Part shown: in pieces, positions 4,251 to 15,620 of the stretch
Numbering within the stretch: the first letter of the stretch is position 1
Layout: each line of letters begins with the position of its first letter
Source: Sphaeroforma arctica JP610
Lineage: Eukaryota
Length of the DNA stretch: 20,000 nucleotides
Assembly (NCBI RefSeq): GCF_001186125.1
Contig: NW_014040521.1
Location: 162,141-182,140 of the forward strand
Reading direction: 5' to 3'
Position numbers and translations under genes: made by a program
The notes under the pieces: generated by a model
Databases searched by the model: none
The model's input: only the letters and a program-made list of their open reading frames with translations
Told to the model about the DNA's origin: nothing

Positions 4251-4737
4251 TGTCGACAACTACCCCTGTATAAACAACTACCTGAGAGACTACAGGAGTA
4301 GACGTATTTCTGAATATGTTAATAACGGTTTACGTCGTCAGCCCGAGAGCAAATTGGGACTTGCCCTCAAATTAATACATGTATAGGTGGCTCCGCCCGA
4401 GAGAACGTAAAGGTACTTTGAGAATTCTTCTCAGATTATTATATCTATAGGACACAGGCCACCGGCTAGTCGAGAGCCGAGGTCCGAGACTGAGTGTACA
4501 TAACAGAGAATATGATATATTTATTTCTAGAAAATATATCCGAGTGCTAAAGTGTTCTGCATAAGGTTTCTCATACTGATCATATAAGTTTTTACCCTGG
4601 CTGGCCCAAGTGGTTGAACACCAGTACAAACACCATCAGTATATAACTGAGGGTGAGATCATTAATAAATTCATTCGAACGCATTATTCTTTAGATATTT
4701 GCACTTTATTTAAAGTCTACTACCTTGCACTCTAACA
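4251..4737 (+). repeat. LTR-like dispersed repeat (probable solo LTR)
   Basis: Starts TGTCGA and ends CTAACA (TG...CA). AATAAA lies near 4664. A second copy is inverted at 18746-19413. Confidence 0.65.
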
Positions 4738-5220: not shown

Positions 5221-5816
5221 TTATGACCGCATAAGTAACTCTATCGTTATATTACAAATATTAACTAGAATGAACAGGTGATTATATGCTCGATTTCCGT
5301 GGACGACGATCTTTCAACCTGTTTAGAGAGACTTCACTGACAGAGGCAATCATATCTCACACGTATAACCTCGATTACCCCATTCATCAACCTTTGTCTA
5401 TTCCGTGAATATAAGAGAGGACATATTTTTGGAGTAAATATGTGTATGTGTTATCTCTATTCGATTCTATCAATGGACATTTGGTGTCTACTTGTATCTT
5501 ATCGTCAGGCAATGCGACTGCTATCGGTTGTAGCTGCTGAAAGTCCTTTCGAGAATTTTGTTCTTGAGACATGGTACACACCCTTCAATGTATTGTTTTA
5601 CATTTTCTTTCTGATATAACCATGCGTGGCCATCTAATCGTAGCTTGTTTATGTTTCTTCAACTATATACCCTACTAGGTGGTACTGTATTGTTAGAATA
5701 GCTCTTGTTTCATTATATATGACCGTGTCTAAATCTGCCGACTCGTCCGCGGTTTGTACCGCCGAGATATCTATGGATGGGTATGCTAGTTTCTGGTCAA
5801 AGTATATTGACTTTGT

Positions 5817-6213
5817 GCCTATCTTGACTACTAGTTTGATCCCCCACGACATCCTGCCGTAAACTGCCGAGCCTGCTTACAATAACGTGTTATTCGTGTT
5901 TTCTACTATCATCTGGTCTTGTTCTACTAGTGACAAGAATTTGGGGAACCACGTTGCATTTGGGTAGCAGGGTACACATATTGTGATACATGGATTCCTC
6001 TATAACCTTAACAGGAACCTCTGATGTTATCTCCCAGGAAGGATTCGCCCATGCGTTCATCTTATTTGCCCACTTTTGAAGTAGTGCATTCTGTTCTTTG
6101 GTGTAGGGATTGACTGTGTGTGCATTATGTGCTGTCGCGAATAACTATGTGATGGTGAAATTCCCAAACATGCGTTCTGCTTCGTTATAGAATCGTGGAT
6201 GTGGTTTCCAGTC
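5817..6213 (-). pseudogene. Dam-like (DIRS/phage-type) N6-adenine DNA methyltransferase domain inside Gypsy pol
   Basis: DWKPHPRFYNEAERMFGNFTIT*LFATAHNAHTVNPYTKEQNALLQKWANKMNAWANPSWEITSEVPVKVIEE /frameshift ~5995/ PCITICVPCYPNATWFPKFLSLVEQDQMIVENTNNTLL*AGSAVYGRMSWGIKLVVKIG. The DLFA-like SAM-binding motif is at ~6147-6136. NPSW at 6045-6034 is one T>C change from catalytic NPPW. WFP is at 5951-5943. Confidence 0.82.
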
Positions 6214-6341
6214 GGTAGCAGAACCCGGATGGGCATGTTTGTTCCAAGTTTCAAGTATAGTGCATTCTTGACCATTGTGTGTGCTCTTGAAAGCTTCCGT
6301 CAACACATTTGCTGTTTGACGTTGAAGGTATCTTCCTATAA

Positions 6342-6485
6342 TCGTGATAGCATGTCGGCCATTCGGTTGTCTTTGCCAGGCACATTGCAAATTGTGAAGT
6401 GGTGCTAAAATGTTTTTGCTATCCACTTTGCCAGCATGATATGCAGCGTTTGCTGATGGTTCATCTGACATAGCGCCTTGGGATC
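6342..6485 (-). pseudogene. Ty3/Gypsy RNase H C-terminal half
   Basis: DPKAL...LAKW...FTICNVPGKDNRMADMLSR matches the Gypsy RNase H pattern TDHKAL...LARW...F.I.H.PGK.N..AD.LSR. It is in one frame with one internal stop. Confidence 0.9.
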
Positions 6486-6974
6486 TAATCACAGCTTTAT
6501 ATCGCCTTCTTTGATGTACTCTGAAAAGTCACTATCGCTTGAAACTCTTTCGTATTCGTCCCATACATTTGTTATGCGGGGCTTAAACCTTTCGAGAAAT
6601 GGATAATATCTCGTTTGACCCCGTCTATGATTTGGAATAGACAGTCTACTTAAGCATGTGTCATTTATGATATGGAATCACTAATGATTACGGAATAGGA
6701 AACTGCCTATTCCAATGATTCTGTAGTTTTGGGGTTTGAATTGGCGTTGTGATAATCTGGTCCCCAATTTTGTACTTCTGAGTCTGCATAGGAGTGGATA
6801 GTAAAATACTACATTACTAGACTATCTTTAGGTTGATGGTTTTGTACAGGGAGAAACTTGTTTCTTAAGGGTAGATGAAAAATCTGCCATCATTACCTAT
6901 TCTTACATATTACCTAATTAATTATACTATTATGGGAGATCGGAGTCAGTCTTGATATGTACTCTCAATTGATA

Positions 6975-8188
6975 TCAACCGGGCATAGGAAAATGCATCT
7001 CAACGGTGGCTCTACAACCGAGTCGTTGGTCCTCATCCACCTGGCGTGGGGGCGGCACATGCTTCAAGGTGAGAAAAGTAAGATTGTTCCTTAGTATCAG
7101 TAAAACTTGGTTAAGTGCCCCGTCTCGTGCACTTTCTGTTGCTCGCTGATCATTTATCAATGCTCTTAGCTGAGCGCGCAGTCGGTATAGTGTAAGACTA
7201 TCAGCATATGCAATGTCTGATTCATGCATCCAGAACGGCCTGTGGTCGAGTATCAAGAAGTACTGAGTCTCCTCAGCTGGTTGTACTTGGCTATTGGGAG
7301 TTAATTCTTCCGAAACATCGACCTTCTTGACGAAGATCGCTGACCGAGTTAAGAAGGCTGCCGACAAAGTACCCGGTGCCCTCCTTGCTTATTATTTTGA
7401 ATGGCCCACCATATGGTTATATCATTTTGTTCATTTCACCTTGATATCACAATGTCCCCTTCCTGGAAGTGTACATACTTTCTTTTTTTTGGTATATTCA
7501 GCCATATGCTGTGCGTTGTTTTTTTCTTCTTCTTGATATTGCGCAACATTAGTGTATAGTTGTGGTATAATTGACTCTTTTGGATTCTGCTGTCGCTGTT
7601 CCCATGATGCTGTCATAGTAGTTGGTGCGTTCATTGATGTGTTGTAGTCCGTGAGTTGGTCTTGTCTGCGTCCAATGTACACATTAAATCTAGTTGAGTT
7701 GTGTCTTCTCGATGAACGCAAATTGCGACCCATTTGTACGAATGGAAGTCGAGAACACCGGTTACCTGGAAAATGTTTATCAATTTCCTTAACAATGGCA
7801 TGAGGTCTCTACGTGATCGCCCGTTTGCGCCTAAGACTTTGGGTTGGTACGAGTGAGAGACTTGGTGTTGTGTCGACGCTTGTTCAAATAGATTCGAGAG
7901 TGTTATATCAATAATATATTCAATGCTTTGATCTGTTGGCATGATTTGTGGGGACCCATGTTCACACATTATTGGTACCAGCGTTCTTGCTACAGTGGCG
8001 TGTGAAGTATGATGAGTGTACACCTTGCCACACAATCACTTACGCGTTATCTCTGTTGGAGTCTAGTAACGGGCTTATGGTGTCCACTTGGTTTTGTCAC
8101 CATGAAACGGGATGGAACCCCTTTTTATAAATTTGTTCTTGAGACACCGTACACATCCCTTGACTTGTTTGTAAACCTGTTGTTTTAA
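6975..8188 (-). mobile_element. pol: Decayed Ty3/Gypsy integrase (family A) with GPF module and probable chromodomain
   Basis: KQVKGCVRCLKNK/KKGFHPVS (~8185-8100), QVDTISPLLDSNRDN, HGSPQIMPTDQSIEY (second Asp), SHSYQPKVLGANGRS (Glu position mutated), YGGPFKIISKE (~7413-7381), YFLILDHRPFWMHESDIAY (chromo-like). Region ~8040-8165 is visibly homologous to ~5445-5590. Confidence 0.82.
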
Positions 8189-8191
8189 AAG

Positions 8192-8395
8192 GTACTTAGT
8201 AAAGTATTGACGGACAAGGCGTCCGCGACAGCGTGTCTCCCGTTGAACACTCGGGCGCCATGGTTTCCTCTGCTTCTATCGATGATGCAAGCAGATCCAT
8301 TGCTGATCCCGCGCACAGCCCATACGTTCTTGAAACATGGCACACAGGCATGTGGGAAGTATCCATGGGAACATACGGAGGTGGTACGTATTGGC
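8192..8395 (+). pseudogene. C-terminal half of Dam-like methyltransferase domain, in frame with the integrase
   Basis: VLSKVLTDKASATACLPLNTRAPWFPLLLSMMQADPLLIPRTAHTFLKHGTQACGKYPWEHTEVVRIG aligns almost gap-free with the family A segment ITICVPCYPNATWFPKFLSLVEQDQMIVENTNNTLL*AGSAVYGRMSWGIKLVVKIG. It resembles the DIRS MT tail (VL.K....A...I.P.W....WFP.L). It is 5'-truncated just after where NPPW should be. Confidence 0.75.
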
Positions 8396-9720
8396 CATCC
8401 ATCGGGTTATAAAGTTTCTCCATCATTCTGGTATAACTTGGGTCTCGAAGTACCTGTGTGTGAGGAAGCTAAGGATCGTTATCAAGAAACATGGGCGCAA
8501 CCAGCCATGACCAAACGGACACGACAGATTGCGGAACAGGTGACTGAGATTTGTGCAGGGGCGACGGTGATAAATCATCCTGTACATGAAGAAGCTAATC
8601 GACGGGTACAGCTTACTTGGCAGTTTCATGAACAAGGACATCCTGCTCCAGCGATCACAGTGCAACAGATGCGAGACGATGGACACAATTGGGACCAAAT
8701 GCTTCCAATCACGGAAGAGGTCCATAAATTATGTCGCACATGTTTAGGTAATGACACTATGAAGAAGGGATTTCATCCTTTAATGAGTATTACGGCACAC
8801 TATCCATGGGACCATATTCAAATGGATCTCATTCAGATGGCAGTGACATCTACTAAAGGCAACAAGTTTATTATACATGTCTTGGATGTCGCATCCGGCA
8901 ACTCTATTTTACGGGCGCTGCCTGCAAAAGATGCTAAGACGATGGAGACAGAGTTAGTATCGGGTTAGTGAGCATGGCTTTCCTCGTTGAAAATTCAGAG
9001 TGATGAGGGGACTGAATTTGTCAACAACATTGTCAGGGCTATAACACGAGCACTCAGAATTATACACAAGTCATTTCAACCATACCGTCCTCAAACATTG
9101 GGTGCGGCAGAGCGCCGACATAAAGAATTTCACAAATGTGTGCACGCGCTTTGTGTTGGCTGTCCGTAATTCTGGGATGAACGCTTACCTTTTACTATGC
9201 TTTACCAGAACCTCCGGATATCACGTCGACACATGTCAGCACCATTTAATATTTACTTTGGGCGCCGCTATGTTCCATTTGCAGACATGACTGATGACCT
9301 ACCTGATCACATTCCCAAAACGAATGATGCATGGCTTAAGCGATGACCTTGAGAAAACAATTCTGCCAAAACTTCATCAGAAAACTACCAAGTAAACTGA
9401 TGCTATGGCTGAGGCCACTGACCAGATGCGGAAATTTGATTTAATTGAATTTAAGCCAGGGGACGTGGTCATGATACTCGCACAAGGAGCGACTACCAAA
9501 GCCATGAAGCCCTTGCTGGGCCCATACGTAATTCACAGCCGTGTGAATCAGAGATACCATCTACGAGACAAGGATGGCAGCAAACCACCGGAACTCAGAG
9601 ACCGTCCAGTTAATGTGAAGATTATTCGGCTAGTTCACCGGGCTACAGAGCCACCGCTAGATGAATCGCTAAGGAGAGAAGGGGGATCGACATTCCGGCA
9701 CATCATATCACACCGTCACA
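8192..9720 (+). mobile_element. pol: Decayed Ty3/Gypsy pol 3' part (family B): MTase C-terminal half - HHCC/DDE integrase - GPY module - truncated chromo-like start
   Basis: FHEQGH...CRTC (8627-8743), PWDHIQMDL (D 8825), IQSDEGTEF (D 9002), YRPQTLGAAERRH (E 9110, 35 residues between second D and E), FKPGDVVMI..LLGPYVI (GPY 9519-9527), TFRHIISHRH. Frameshift/stop near 8966 and further stops downstream. Confidence 0.92.
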
Positions 9721-10259
9721 ATGAGGCGATTCTGTCTGGCTGGGGCTGCGCCCTTGCTGCATGCATGAGTGACGTCTGCACGAGAGGATACACACTCACA
9801 CGTTATCATTAAAAAGTAAACTTACGTAGACTTTGAGACATGAATACAATACTTGCACGACATATACAGGATAGGATATTAGTTATCATTACAATAGTCT
9901 TATTTATCATATACAATTCACATAGGTCAAGTATAACGGCTACGATACTACAACACAATCGCAGAGCGATATCCACACGTATATACATATTCATAACAAA
10001 TACTACAGCAACTATACATATAGGCTTAATTAAATTACATTATAAGATCGCATTGAGAAAACATTAATACATCCCAGTGATACGTGGGTGATGTGATATA
10101 GTGTCCTTGATGCGACACATGTACCACAGCCCAACACTATACATGCATAGGCATGGCATAACACTTTGGACATAAACATACGAAACAGAACGTCATGTGG
10201 CAAGGATATCTATATGCTTAGAGTACAGGCGAGCACCCTGTTGGCTCTAACTCAACGGC

Positions 10260-10463
10260 GAGCAACCCTGAGGACACGGCGCATTGAACTTTGTGTGAGC
10301 TCGGTTATCATCCGCAGCTTCGAGCGTATTATGTTTATTTAGATGCTGAGAATGCGGGCAAACACCCTGTATATTCTTACTCAGAGGTGAGCAACCCTGA
10401 GGACACGGCACATTGAATTTTGCGTGAGCACTACAGTCGGTGAACAGCCGCAGCTTCGAGCGT
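10260..10463. repeat. Direct repeat pair (~70 bp)
   Basis: gagcaaccctgaggacacggc.cattgaa.ttg.gtgagc...ccgcagcttcgagcgt at 10260-10327 and 10390-10463. Confidence 0.9.
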
Positions 10464-10500
10464 GTTGCATAGTCGCCCTGAGTGGTGTTGAGTTGGATAA

Positions 10501-10708
10501 CGTTATTACGTAAAAGTCGGAAAGTGTTACATAACTACGTAGGAGGCGGAACATGTACAACATCATTACGCAAGAGTCGGAACATGTACGAATTATTACC
10601 TAACAAGTCGGAACATTAGCATCATTACGTAAGAGGCGGACCATGTATAACATTATTACACAAGAGTCGGAACATGTATCACTATTACGTAAAAGTCAGA
10701 ACGTGTAA
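10501..10708. repeat. Minisatellite, 7 diverged ~30-bp units
   Basis: Consensus approximately CATTATTACGTAAGAGTCGGAACATGTAYAA, repeated head-to-tail with no spacers. Confidence 0.9.
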
Positions 10709-11090: not shown

Positions 11091-11988
11091 NNNNNNNNNN
11101 NNNNNNNNNNNNNNNNNNNNNNNNNNNNNNNNNNNNNNNNNNNNNNNNNNNNNNNNNNNNNNNNNNNNNNNNNNNNNNNNNNNNNNNNNNNNNNNNNNNN
11201 NNNNNNNNNNNNNNNNNNNNNNNNNNNNNNNNNNNNNNNNNNNNNNNNNNNNNNNNNNNNNNNNNNNNNNNNNNNNNNNNNNNNNNNNNNNNNNNNNNNN
11301 NNNNNNNNNNNNNNNNNNNNNNNNNNNNNNNNNNNNNNNNNNNNNNNNNNNNNNNNNNNNNNNNNNNNNNNNNNNNNNNNNNNNNNNNNNNNNNNNNNNN
11401 NNNNNNNNNNNNNNNNNNNNNNNNNNNNNNNNNNNNNNNNNNNNNNNNNNNNNNNNNNNNNNNNNNNNNNNNNNNNNNNNNNNNNNNNNNNNNNNNNNNN
11501 NNNNNNNNNNNNNNNNNNNNNNNNNNNNNNNNNNNNNNNNNNNNNNNNNNNNNNNNNNNNNNNNNNNNNNNNNNNNNNNNNNNNNNNNNNNNNNNNNNNN
11601 NNNNNNNNNNNNNNNNNNNNNNNNNNNNNNNNNNNNNNNNNNNNNNNNNNNNNNNNNNNNNNNNNNNNNNNNNNNNNNNNNNNNNNNNNNNNNNNNNNNN
11701 NNNNNNNNNNNNNNNNNNNNNNNNNNNNNNNNNNNNNNNNNNNNNNNNNNNNNNNNNNNNNNNNNNNNNNNNNNNNNNNNNNNNNNNNNNNNNNNNNNNN
11801 NNNNNNNNNNNNNNNNNNNNNNNNNNNNNNNNNNNNNNNNNNNNNNNNNNNNNNNNNNNNNNNNNNNNNNNNNNNNNNNNNNNNNNNNNNNNNNNNNNNN
11901 NNNNNNNNNNNNNNNNNNNNNNNNNNNNNNNNNNNNNNNNNNNNNNNNNNNNNNNNNNNNNNNNNNNNNNNNNNNNNNNNNNNNNNNN
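11091..11988. other. Assembly gap (N run)
   Basis: Continuous Ns. Confidence 1.
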
Positions 11989-12350
11989 ACTACATATATA
12001 CATCCATTATATACAATTTACATACATATAATATATATTGTACATTTATATATAAACCAACCATCATGCATATACATGATAACATAATATACATTATACA
12101 TATACACATGTATAGTAATAACAATAAATATACTTATAATAAAATATATTTTATAATATATACATATTATAATATATATATATCATTCATGTACGGTTAA
12201 ATATATATAATCAATATATAAGCGATGGTGAGCATGAACACAAATAGTAAATTGATTTAACATAGAGGCAAGGGTGTAGAGACGCTCACATACATGTATA
12301 AAAACATATAATCGGCATATATACATATAACATGCTACAACATCGTAAAC
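11989..12350. repeat. AT-rich low-complexity tract (ATA/ACAT-like)
   Basis: Degenerate TA/ACAT runs with very little G, flanking the gap. Confidence 0.75.
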
Positions 12351-13275
12351 ATTATACAAATTGAATCAACTGATTCAATTCGACGTTACAAACACGAGGT
12401 TATATGGGAATAAATACTTTAACAACGAGCCTGCATCTGACACAGAAGCCATACACTCGTCGAAATCCACATCACGATATCCCAGTCAACAGTATCGGGC
12501 ATAGGGCCACAGATACTCTTCATTTAGCTGGAATTAATGAACCATACACACATAGACTACGAACACGTATATGAATTATGAGGTTTATTTACTACATTTC
12601 CATTATACTTTTGGGTATCTAAAATTGATAGAAACATAAAGAATCAGACGGTTGATATATCCGTTCGCAAACCGGTATAAACCGTTTCTAGATACTATGC
12701 CACGGTGCACCATAGAACAATAGCACATATAAATAACCGTTTAAACGTGTTCGAAAACAGAACATTCATAATCAAACATGCGTCAGATACCAAATTAGTA
12801 TATATATTTAGAATAAGACAATAGGTTAAACGAACCACATAGGTCAGTTTAAATAATAACGAGTTACAACAATTGGCGACACGAATTTTAGACATGAGTC
12901 GTAAAGTATTAAACATAGTTTGGACCGGATACAAATACAAGATATATAAAACGACAATATATAAATCTAGGACTGTTCTTAATTGTATTTATTGTTGTTC
13001 AGATATTTTTCTTGCATTTACAAAAGGACAAAAGAATTTAGTACAAACAGCAGATAATACTACCGCATTTCAAATATTTTAATATAAAACAGGTACTTTA
13101 GTCTGTTTACAGTTGACTGAGTGATACTTTAGCCACGACTATTAACGACACTTGTAATAATTGGCAAATAATAATTATGACGACGCATTAACCCCACGGT
13201 CCGTGTAGGATATTACCTTCAGATTTGTGGCATAAATAGTCATTACAAAAATACCAACACTGAACTTGGCGGGGC

Positions 13276-13691
13276 TGTGGACAAAGTACCGTAGACGGAG
13301 ATGTAGGGCCGGACCAGAGGACCGGACCGACATGATGAATCTAGGACCAGACCAGAGGACCGGACCTAGGATAAATTATTTAAAGACCGAGCCATAGGAT
13401 CGGGCCTGAGAGGATTTAATTGTGATCCGAGGATCGGACTAGATAATATAATATATGATTTAGTGAGAGATAATGATGACTCACCGGAAGTCATCATTAT
13501 TTAGTAACTAGAAGACCAGAATCTTAGATACGGATATTTTTACAATCTGCCGTTGTTAGTGAAAATCTCGTCCCACATAGGAACGTGATTAATAAATACA
13601 GCAGACGCGCCGATCATAACAGCACTTCTGACTGAGTTTACTTATTTCAGACTTAACACTCTTTATTAAGTGTTACTTGGTTTTGACCACA
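13276..13691 (+). repeat. LTR of the GGACC-rich family, copy 1
   Basis: TGTGGACAAA...TTTGACCACA (10-bp inverted termini, 1 mismatch), internal GGACC subrepeats, AATAAA and the shared 3' block cacttctgactgagtt..cttatttcagactt. Homologous to 14220-14550 and 15264-15620. Confidence 0.85.
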
Positions 13692-14219
13692 CCTTTTATA
13701 CATTGGAACTAACTAGGCTGAACCAGTGAACCTGTAAACCATCTAGCTTCTCCTATACGCGTACCTTGAGTGTACTTACAACTAAGCTCTACTAGCCAAA
13801 CTAGGACGAATCCCCAAGAACCCTAGTCATATTTAATCATAACTTTTAATCTATTTTATGTGAACACCTCCTGTAACTTAGTTTCTCACAGCACAGTTTA
13901 ACAATTAAGGTCCAATCTCTTCCCACCTATTATAAGAAGCTCTGAAGACCCATCTTCATCTTGTTCTTCCTATGGGGAAAGCAAAAATTATCGCGAGAAT
14001 ACACTTGCTTCCTTGCGGAGGATGCTCGTGTTGGCTTCTTGCTGCGGCATATCGATCAGATTATCCAAGTTAAAATGTGTGATGGCTGAACTCGGCTTCG
14101 GTGCCCAGGTGGCAATTATCAAACGCTATCTTGTTGTACATTACGGTGCATCCACCCGCCTCTGTCGCCCGGATAACGTCTCCGAGCTACTCGACCAGGC
14201 GAAACGCCTGAATACATCC

Positions 14220-14550
14220 TGTGGACAAAGTGCCCTCTCTAGGAGGATAGTTTGGACCGGACCAGAGGACAACCGGACATGAGAGAGGAGTTTAGGACCG
14301 GACCAGATAACCGGACCAGAGAACCGGACCGATCAGTGTAATAGAGAAGTTAATAAGATAGAAGTGATGACTCATCCGAAACCATAGAGACGGGTATTTT
14401 CACGTAAACCGATGGTAGAGAGAGTCTCGTTCCATATATGATCGTGATGAATAAATATAGCAGGCACGCCATTTGCAATGGCACTTCTGACTGAGTTCAC
14501 TTATTTCAGACTTCACACTCTTTACTAAGCGTAACTCTGTTTGGACCACA
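14220..14550 (+). repeat. 5' LTR (GGACC family, copy 2)
   Basis: TGTGGACAAAG...TTGGACCACA, homologous to copies 1 and 3. Confidence 0.85.
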
Positions 14551-15263: not shown

Positions 15264-15620
15264 TCTGACCAAAGCACCCTATAGGAGGGTAGTCAAGACT
15301 GGACCTTAGGACCGGACCTGAGAGATGAGTTTAGGACCGGACCAGAGGACCGTACCTAAGGGAATATTCGAGGACCGGACAAGAGGACCGGACCGATTAG
15401 TGCAATAGAAAACTTAATGAGATACGAGAAGTGTGTGATGACTCATCCGAAAGCATAGAGACGGGTATTTGCACATAACCCGATATTAGAGAAAGTCTCG
15501 TTCCACACAGGATTGTAATTAATAAATATAGCAGACGCGCTATTCCCAATGACACTTCTACTGAATTCACTTATTTCAGACTTTAAACTCTTTACTAAGC
15601 GTCACTCGGTTTTGACCACA
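15264..15620 (+). repeat. 3' LTR (GGACC family, copy 3)
   Basis: Degenerate start TCTGACCAAAG, end TTTGACCACA. Shares tgatgactcatccgaaa..catagagacgggtattt with copy 2. Confidence 0.8.

What the first reader, a model, noticed from the sequence alone, without database searches (positions are those of the whole stretch)
8192..8968. A second, divergent Gypsy family has the same methyltransferase tail in frame with its integrase
Seen: one uninterrupted frame joins VLSKVLTDKASATACLP...APWFPLLLSM...PLLIP...GKYPW..VVRIG to the HHCC finger and first catalytic Asp. It aligns at protein level to family A, with little obvious DNA identity. Inference: the MT-IN fusion predates the split of the two families and was retained. 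That argues for an ancestral, selected domain rather than a chance nested insertion, and it is the best internal support for the top finding.
Basis: partly seen in the sequence, partly recalled or inferred. Interest (0 to 1): 0.85.

Follow-up and report, generated by a model that had tools for sequence, protein, structure and literature searches.

The report
Gypsy retrotransposon with inherited adenine methyltransferase
This is a broken, front-cut copy of a repeated jumping gene whose integrase is fused to a DNA-adenine-methyltransferase-like domain that it likely inherited from an ancestor shared with the neighbouring family and likely uses to mark its own new copies, a kind of element already described in a 2026 preprint.

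Summary
Observation confirmed. 8189-8968 is one open 259-codon frame: the C-terminal half of a Dam-like adenine methyltransferase, a spacer, the HHCC finger and the first integrase Asp. It aligns to family A (36% over 61 aa; 0 of 5000 shuffles reach the score). This copy is cut at 8189, but other copies continue upstream, and in 2 of 4 runs they read NPPW in frame. Integrase and Dam trees both put A-type, B and Abeoforma elements in one supported group, and Dam is as conserved as reverse transcriptase, so an old, selected fusion is supported. One nested relative lacks Dam. B's own DLFA motif and a formal dN/dS were not obtained. The closest named relatives are Sphaeroforma arctica proteins. 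Such DAM-LTR elements, including an ichthyosporean lineage, were described in bioRxiv 10.64898/2026.05.21.726589, and this scan noted the architecture in other genomes. One addition: that preprint says the lineage lacks chromodomains, yet 11 of 14 members tested end in a divergent chromodomain with an incomplete aromatic cage. Catalytic activity remains unshown.

The parts
8189..8410 (+). Family B: C-terminal half of a Dam-like N6-adenine methyltransferase domain; the copy is cut at 8189, 24 nt after the start of the NPPW motif that other copies show
   Evidence: Dam profile E 6.4e-21; alignment to A; loose ends
8411..8626 (+). Family B: in-frame spacer between Dam and integrase
   Evidence: open frame; 72% identical to a Sphaeroforma protein P0004; bridged by diverged contigs 8306-8626 and 8409-8859
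8627..8743 (+). Family B: integrase HHCC zinc finger
   Evidence: sequence; Pfam Integrase_H2C2 E 0.029, below cut-off
8744..9346 (+). Family B: DDE integrase core, broken by stops at 8966-8971 and 9167-9169
   Evidence: Pfam rve E 7.8e-8 with X at stops
9345..9728 (+). Family B: integrase C-terminal region in another frame (GPY motif) and, at 9693-9728, what aligns to the first strand of a chromodomain; the window copy departs from other copies behind 9729
   Evidence: tblastn with P0170; loose end behind 9729 in one run reads EYLVRW in this frame (table 7)
6216..6677 (-). Family A: RNase H and linker, broken
   Evidence: 50% identical to P0005 residues 521-674
5790..6215 (-). Family A: Dam domain in two frames; motif IV reads NPSW in this decayed copy
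   Evidence: Pfam Dam PF05869 E 1e-7, 32.2 bits, cut-off 28.1
5408..5789 (-). Family A: spacer, integrase zinc finger and start of core, broken
   Evidence: 45% identical to P0005 in three pieces
7176..8185 (-). Separate A-type 3' fragment (integrase core to a chromodomain with an internal deletion) that abuts the cut end of B back to back
   Evidence: tblastn with P0005 and P0170
16723..17262 (-). Second family B fragment, integrase core only
   Evidence: 81% DNA identity to 8865-9370

Best explanation
8189-9728 is a dead, 5'-cut copy of a repeated Ty3/Gypsy-type retrotransposon in which a Dam-like adenine methyltransferase domain is fused in frame ahead of the integrase, a fusion likely inherited from the ancestor it shares with family A, and in live elements the domain likely methylates adenines on the element's own new DNA copy so that it stays transcribed. 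Shown here: the fusion; other copies of it; NPPW upstream in other B copies; the order protease-RT-RNase H-Dam-integrase-chromodomain in full-length relatives; congruent Dam and integrase trees; RT-level conservation of Dam. Inferred, following the preprint's model: the domain is packaged with RT and integrase because it is part of Pol; it puts 6mA on the cDNA or RNA:DNA intermediate before integration; the host AMT1 then maintains the mark and the new insertion sits in permissive chromatin; the divergent chromodomain steers the insertion site. My odds: identity 0.95, fusion older than the A/B split 0.85, this particular mechanism 0.45.
For: frame and alignment; Dam and integrase profiles; other copies, NPPW; full-length RT-RH-Dam-IN proteins such as P0005, P0009, P0013, P0171; trees; Dam 45% against RT 46%, RNase H 41%, integrase core 40%, linkers 22% and 15%. 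NPP(W/F) is kept in all 9 full-length members aligned (8 by pattern; P0010 read). The preprint reports more 6mA and more expression on DAM-LTR than on other LTR insertions in S. arctica and A. whisleri.
Against: No activity has been shown: eukaryotic DAMs expressed in dam-minus E. coli did not raise 6mA (preprint). The 6mA enrichment is a correlation. P0078 sits inside the group with a full Pol and no Dam, so the domain is dispensable in at least one branch. Outer Dam-bearing elements have altered motif IV (NIPF, APTE, FPPY, FPPW). DLFA was not seen in B proper; its nearest sister fragment reads DVFVS and CPPW (P0099). B is a long branch and only its tail enters the Dam tree.
Confidence: 0.5

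Rival explanations
1. The domain travels with the integrase and methylates the target site or flanking host DNA during or after integration, rather than the cDNA beforehand.
For: Dam is in frame with the integrase through a variable spacer, and the integrase ends in a chromodomain.
Against: In DIRS elements the same domain ends the RT-RNase H frame with no DDE integrase attached (L002, L004, L005). The RH-Dam linker is better conserved than the Dam-IN linker (22% against 15%; 79% against 43% in the closest pair), which fits Dam staying with RT.
Confidence: 0.15
2. The domain acts on RNA (element transcript or primer), or binds nucleic acid or SAM without catalysis, as a helper of reverse transcription.
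For: The best structural neighbours of the model mix RNA and DNA N6-adenine methyltransferases (DIMT1, KsgA, PCIF1, CamA, M.TaqI), all tied at Z 4.2-4.8. The E. coli DNA assay was negative. Motif IV is altered in outer lineages.
Against: The Pfam family is the phage DNA enzyme Dam. NPP(W/F) is kept throughout this group. The structural scores are weak and show no substrate.
Confidence: 0.2
3. The methyl mark shields cytoplasmic cDNA from host nucleases or sensors, as phage orphan methyltransferases shield phage DNA, and has nothing to do with later transcription.
For: Relationship to phage Dam (Pfam PF05869); DIRS carry it in hosts without AMT1 (preprint). The phage analogy is recalled knowledge.
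Against: DAM-LTRs are mostly found in AMT1-positive hosts, 9 of 13 (preprint).
Confidence: 0.1
4. A and B share the domain through a later swap of a Dam or Dam-integrase block between Gypsy families in one host, or through two captures, not through common descent.
For: Outside this group, 6 Dam-bearing integrases lie scattered among Dam-free ones; the label needs 5 changes on the 45-row tree. The preprint reports repeated transfers. B's RT is not available, so a swap of the whole Dam-IN block is not excluded.
Against: Dam and integrase trees recover the same group, which spans two named genera. Third codon positions between A and B are at chance identity, so any swap must itself be very old.
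Confidence: 0.12

Closest known systems
DAM-LTR retrotransposons, ichthyosporean lineage (Fernandez-Moreno et al., bioRxiv 10.64898/2026.05.21.726589; whole main text read; figures and supplements not seen)
   Same: Ty3/Gypsy organisation with a DIRS-type Dam domain and NPP triplet. The nearest named relatives of B are Sphaeroforma arctica proteins (82, 73, 60% identity) and Abeoforma whisleri Pols, two of the three species named for the lineage.
   Different: The preprint says the lineage lacks chromodomains; here 11 of 14 members tested, including an Abeoforma Pol, end in a divergent one. Its main text does not discuss two deep families in one host, selection on Dam (0 occurrences of 'purifying' or 'synonymous') or a nested loss.
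DIRS-type retrotransposons with an RT-RNase H-methyltransferase frame
   Same: The same Dam domain directly after RNase H (L002, L004, L005 score E 1e-32 to 1e-34 against the Dam profile).
   Different: In DIRS the frame ends after Dam and integration uses a tyrosine recombinase; here Dam runs on into an HHCC/DDE integrase.
Chromoviruses with group II chromodomains (PMC3605345, passages only)
   Same: Chromodomain at the integrase C-terminus with an incomplete HP1-type aromatic cage.
   Different: The third cage aromatic is absent in 11 of 11, but the first is kept in 5 of 11. That 2013 paper reports group II only from plants. RT-based placement among chromoviruses was not tested.

Membership tests
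DAM-LTR retrotransposons | Dam-family domain (PF05869) in the pol frame | tested here: met
   Family A E 1e-7, above cut-off; B tail E 6.4e-21 against a custom Dam profile, not hit by Pfam alone
DAM-LTR retrotransposons | Ty3/Gypsy-type pol with RT, RNase H and DDE integrase | tested here: met
   B: rve above cut-off. A: RH-Dam-IN order in the window. Full order in relatives P0005, P0170, P0171. B's own RT is not in the window.
DAM-LTR retrotransposons | Asn-Pro-Pro catalytic triplet | tested here: met
   Other B copies read NPPW in frame in 2 of 4 runs; the window's A copy reads NPSW; close A relatives read NPPW
DAM-LTR retrotransposons | SAM-binding D-x-F-A motif in family B | tested here: inconclusive
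   Lies beyond the 30 loose letters shown; the sister fragment P0099 reads DVFVS
DAM-LTR retrotransposons | Paired long terminal repeats, primer site, polypurine tract | tested here: inconclusive
   Only fragments in the window; no paired repeat around B; no purine run of 9 or more behind either 3' end
DAM-LTR retrotransposons | 6mA enrichment and expression of insertions | not testable with these tools
   Reported in the preprint for S. arctica and A. whisleri
Ichthyosporean DAM-LTR lineage | Dam groups with Abeoforma and Sphaeroforma elements | tested here: met
   One group, 98/97, rooted on three DIRS; the preprint's own sequence set was not seen
Ichthyosporean DAM-LTR lineage | Described as lacking chromodomains | tested here: not met
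   Chromodomain in 11 of 14 members, including Abeoforma protein P0009. I read this as a gap in the description (hits fall below Pfam's cut-off), and file the element under DAM-LTR, grouping with these species.
DIRS-type retrotransposons | Pol frame ends after Dam; tyrosine recombinase instead of DDE integrase | tested here: not met
   Dam runs in frame into HHCC and rve
Chromoviruses, group I chromodomain | Complete three-residue aromatic cage | tested here: not met
   Third aromatic absent in 11 of 11; first present in 5 of 11
Chromoviruses | RT phylogeny within the chromovirus branch | not tested
   No reference RT set was available

The most novel reading that the evidence does not exclude
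These elements are an old holozoan lineage of Gypsy retrotransposons that pairs an active adenine methyltransferase with an overlooked cage-less chromodomain: the chromodomain would steer integration to a mark other than H3K9me (possibly active chromatin) while Dam primes the new copy with 6mA, making a reader-writer pair for installing the element in transcribed chromatin. Two deeply split families in one host plus a relative that lost Dam but kept the chromodomain give a natural comparison.
Probability: 0.2. Interest if true: 0.65.

Novelty: already known. Interest (0 to 1): 0.27.

Why it matters
It independently confirms a recently described element type and adds three small points to it: Dam is as conserved as reverse transcriptase across deeply split families, which argues for function despite a negative E. 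coli assay; a nested member has lost it; and the lineage said to lack chromodomains has a divergent one. If the domain methylates the element's own cDNA, it would be a transposon writing an activating host mark on itself.

Tried and rejected
No whole genome was held, so full-length B copies could not be pulled. Word-based protein searches were nearly blind: 1 hit among 680 longer candidates, a Dam-free element, and 0 of 211 near-length candidates. A metagenome scan with B found 0 relatives among 37 pattern matches; the second scan gave 6 loci of 150 matches, one A-type RT fragment and five Dam matches, of which three were examined and are DIRS. No RNA holder was listed among the sequencing runs; this says nothing on expression. 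Summed contig depth over the tail and the integrase is far above the single-copy depth but is not a copy number and was not used as one. The Dam profile has no sequence match in the PDB (best E 0.45, unrelated). The Dam model was mediocre (pLDDT 67.5; residues 25-61 under 50); Foldseek gave no match at E 0.001 and the wide search only Z 4.8 or less, though nearly all top rows are SAM-dependent methyltransferases. Foldseek of the chromodomain model had no row at E 0.001 either (best 5.6e-3, probability 1.00). Chromodomain profiles did not detect the broken window copies. Variant sites among B copies give only weak selection evidence: 8 of 13 listed sites synonymous in 8223-8260 (p 0.035 against one third) and 7 of 18 at sites where this copy differs from most (p 0.085); both lists are filtered by the tool. 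AU tests did not resolve whether A and B are sisters (p 0.36), and the second test (p 0.19) did not test the alternative I intended. Assembly artefact and chance nested insertion were rejected. Earlier-findings look-ups by place and by sequence returned nothing.

Full report
Observation. With X at the stops, the same frame scores Pfam rve above its cut-off (E 7.8e-8). The first 74 residues match the last half of a Dam profile built from 12 other elements (E 6.4e-21). The tail aligns without gaps to family A at 5984-5802 (minus strand), 22 of 61 identical; 0 of 5000 shuffles reached the score. DNA identity is 48, 62 and 25% at the three codon positions, so third positions are at chance level while the protein is kept. 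Family A itself hits Pfam Dam above the curated cut-off (E 1e-7), between RNase H and integrase.

Surroundings. The B copy is cut at 8189. To its left lies an A-type integrase fragment on the other strand (8185-7176). An 846-nt contig with no mismatch spans the junction in all 4 runs and 3 of 4 runs, so the junction is real; these runs may be one strain and are not independent. To the right the integrase is broken by stops at 8966-8971 and 9167-9169 and by a frame change near 9345. A second B fragment, integrase core only, lies at 17262-16723 (81% DNA identity). No LTR pair was found.

Other B copies. Diverged contigs bridge the tail and spacer to the zinc finger (8306-8626, 53 differences) and the spacer to the core (8409-8859), so the fusion belongs to the family, not to this copy. 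Contigs that fit from 8189 onward continue upstream with other letters. Read in frame, these give WMNPPWRLIH before KVLSKV in runs X1 (4 contigs) and X10 (3 contigs), and MNPPW in one further single contig in each. In X5 the loose letters were too short (8), and in X12 they did not read NPPW (table 7). The D-x-F-A motif lies beyond the letters shown; the nearest sister fragment, P0099, reads DVFVS and CPPW.

Relatives. An unrestricted HMMER search found 678 proteins at E 0.001 or better, of which the best 150 were returned. The closest are Sphaeroforma arctica fragments (82, 73 and 60% identity); Abeoforma whisleri Pols follow. The host is therefore likely an ichthyosporean protist; this is inference from named hits. 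A custom profile found Dam in 33 of 170 fetched proteins, several of them near-duplicates. Full-length ones show the order protease-RT-RNase H-Dam-integrase. P0005, P0170 and P0171 stand in for family A (P0005 is 45-55% identical to its pieces) and are also B's best full-length matches (33-34%).

Is the fusion older than the split? In an integrase tree of 84 rows of known Dam state (40 rows of unknown state left out), and in a careful tree of 45 of them, B, the A stand-ins and the Abeoforma elements fall in one 14-row group (SH-aLRT 99; 99/98), 13 with Dam and 1 without. Without the longest branch the group holds at 99/98. In a Dam tree rooted on three DIRS elements from metagenome contigs, the same set is one group at 98/97. 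The two trees agree, which supports one ancestral fusion. A and B are not shown to be sisters (87/82 in one Dam tree, unresolved in the others; AU p 0.36). P0078, nested in the group, has a complete Pol with a short RNase H-integrase spacer and no Dam, most simply a loss. Six further Dam-bearing integrases lie outside the group among Dam-free ones, so gains, losses or swaps do occur in the wider family. B's RT is missing, so an old swap of a Dam-integrase block is not excluded. The rows were chosen by likeness to B, and the outgroup is three related DIRS.

Selection. A formal dN/dS could not be run. As a stand-in, mean pairwise identity across 9 full-length members is 45% for Dam, 46% for RT, 41% for RNase H, 40% for the integrase core, and 22% and 15% for the linkers on either side of Dam. 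NPP(W/F) is kept in all 9. Variant sites among B copies lean synonymous but the lists are short and filtered (8 of 13).

Mechanism. Shown: the architecture, its age and its conservation. Inferred: as part of Pol, the domain would be in the particle with RT and integrase and would methylate adenines on the new cDNA or RNA:DNA intermediate, so that the host AMT1 keeps the insertion marked and transcribed. This is the preprint's model; it rests on more 6mA and more expression on DAM-LTR insertions in S. arctica and A. whisleri, and is weakened by a negative E. coli assay. My fold of the domain was of moderate quality and matched N6-adenine methyltransferases of both RNA and DNA only weakly (Z 4.8 or less), so it does not decide the substrate. 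I give this mechanism 0.45. Rivals are target-site methylation, an RNA-directed or non-catalytic role, and protection of cDNA.

What is known. The bioRxiv preprint 10.64898/2026.05.21.726589 (whole main text read; figures and supplements not seen) reports Dam domains in Ty3/Gypsy elements as five lineages, one from Pirum, Abeoforma and Sphaeroforma arctica. It was one of two papers holding all five search terms (the other, PMC5890265, seen as a listing only). Six earlier notes of this scan describe the same architecture in other genomes; I did not test them. The element type is therefore known.

One addition. The preprint says the ichthyosporean lineage lacks chromodomains. A profile of 90 chromodomains taken from outside the group scored the C-termini of 11 of 14 members at 13.7-40.7 bits, against a maximum of 7.6 in 280 shuffles; of the other three, one is truncated, one scored 2.9 bits and one had no hit. 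A profile of six tails matches HP1 at E 4.4e-7, and nearly all of its best 60 PDB hits are chromodomains. The model (pLDDT 83.6) returns chromodomain proteins in every listed Foldseek row, though none reaches E 0.001. Pfam scores stay below cut-off, which likely explains the miss. The third cage aromatic is absent in 11 of 11 and the first is present in 5 of 11 (P0013 read by eye), resembling the group II type defined in PMC3605345 (passages). For B itself the evidence is thinner: the window copy aligns up to the first strand, and a loose end behind 9729 in one run reads EYLVRW in frame. A search for Sphaeroforma arctica, retrotransposon and chromodomain together listed three papers: the preprint, PMC4007536 (passages read, on Capsaspora chromoviruses) and PMC11244446 (listing only). 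I found no report of this chromodomain in what I read.

Verdict. The kind of element is already described, so interest is modest (0.27).

Noticed in passing
P0005, P0009-P0013, P0078, P0159, P0170, P0171, P0174 C-termini; window 9693-9728 (+) and about 7290-7176 (-): Divergent chromodomain with an incomplete aromatic cage at the integrase end of a lineage published as chromodomain-free.
   Followed up: yes
P0078: Full Pol nested in the Dam-bearing group but with no Dam domain; it keeps the chromodomain. A likely loss and a natural control.
   Followed up: partly
P0008, P0017, P0024, P0035, P0060, P0062, P0122: Unnamed, mostly metagenomic Gypsy Pols with Dam between RNase H and integrase that lie outside this group, scattered among Dam-free integrases; several have an altered motif IV (NIPF, APTE, FPPY, FPPW). 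May be lineages beyond the five published.
   Followed up: partly
window 13275-13691, 14219-14550, 15279-15620: Three copies, about 1 kb apart and 77-79% alike, of a non-coding repeat rich in GGACCGGACC units.
   Followed up: no
window 4269-4736 and 19395-18747: Two inverted copies of a repeat, 76-79% alike, about 14 kb apart; possibly solo LTRs.
   Followed up: no
window 10207-10466 and 10503-10708: A 129-nt two-copy repeat and a tandem array of about 30-nt units behind the 3' end of B; could be part of an LTR.
   Followed up: no
window 11091-11989: Assembly gap of about 900 N, followed by an AT-rich low-complexity stretch.
   Followed up: no
L002, L004, L005: DIRS-type elements with RT-RNase H-Dam frames and intact NPPW; L004 holds an overlapping frame with a tyrosine-recombinase-like HSLRSG motif (motif recalled; no Pfam hit). 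Used as outgroup.
   Followed up: partly
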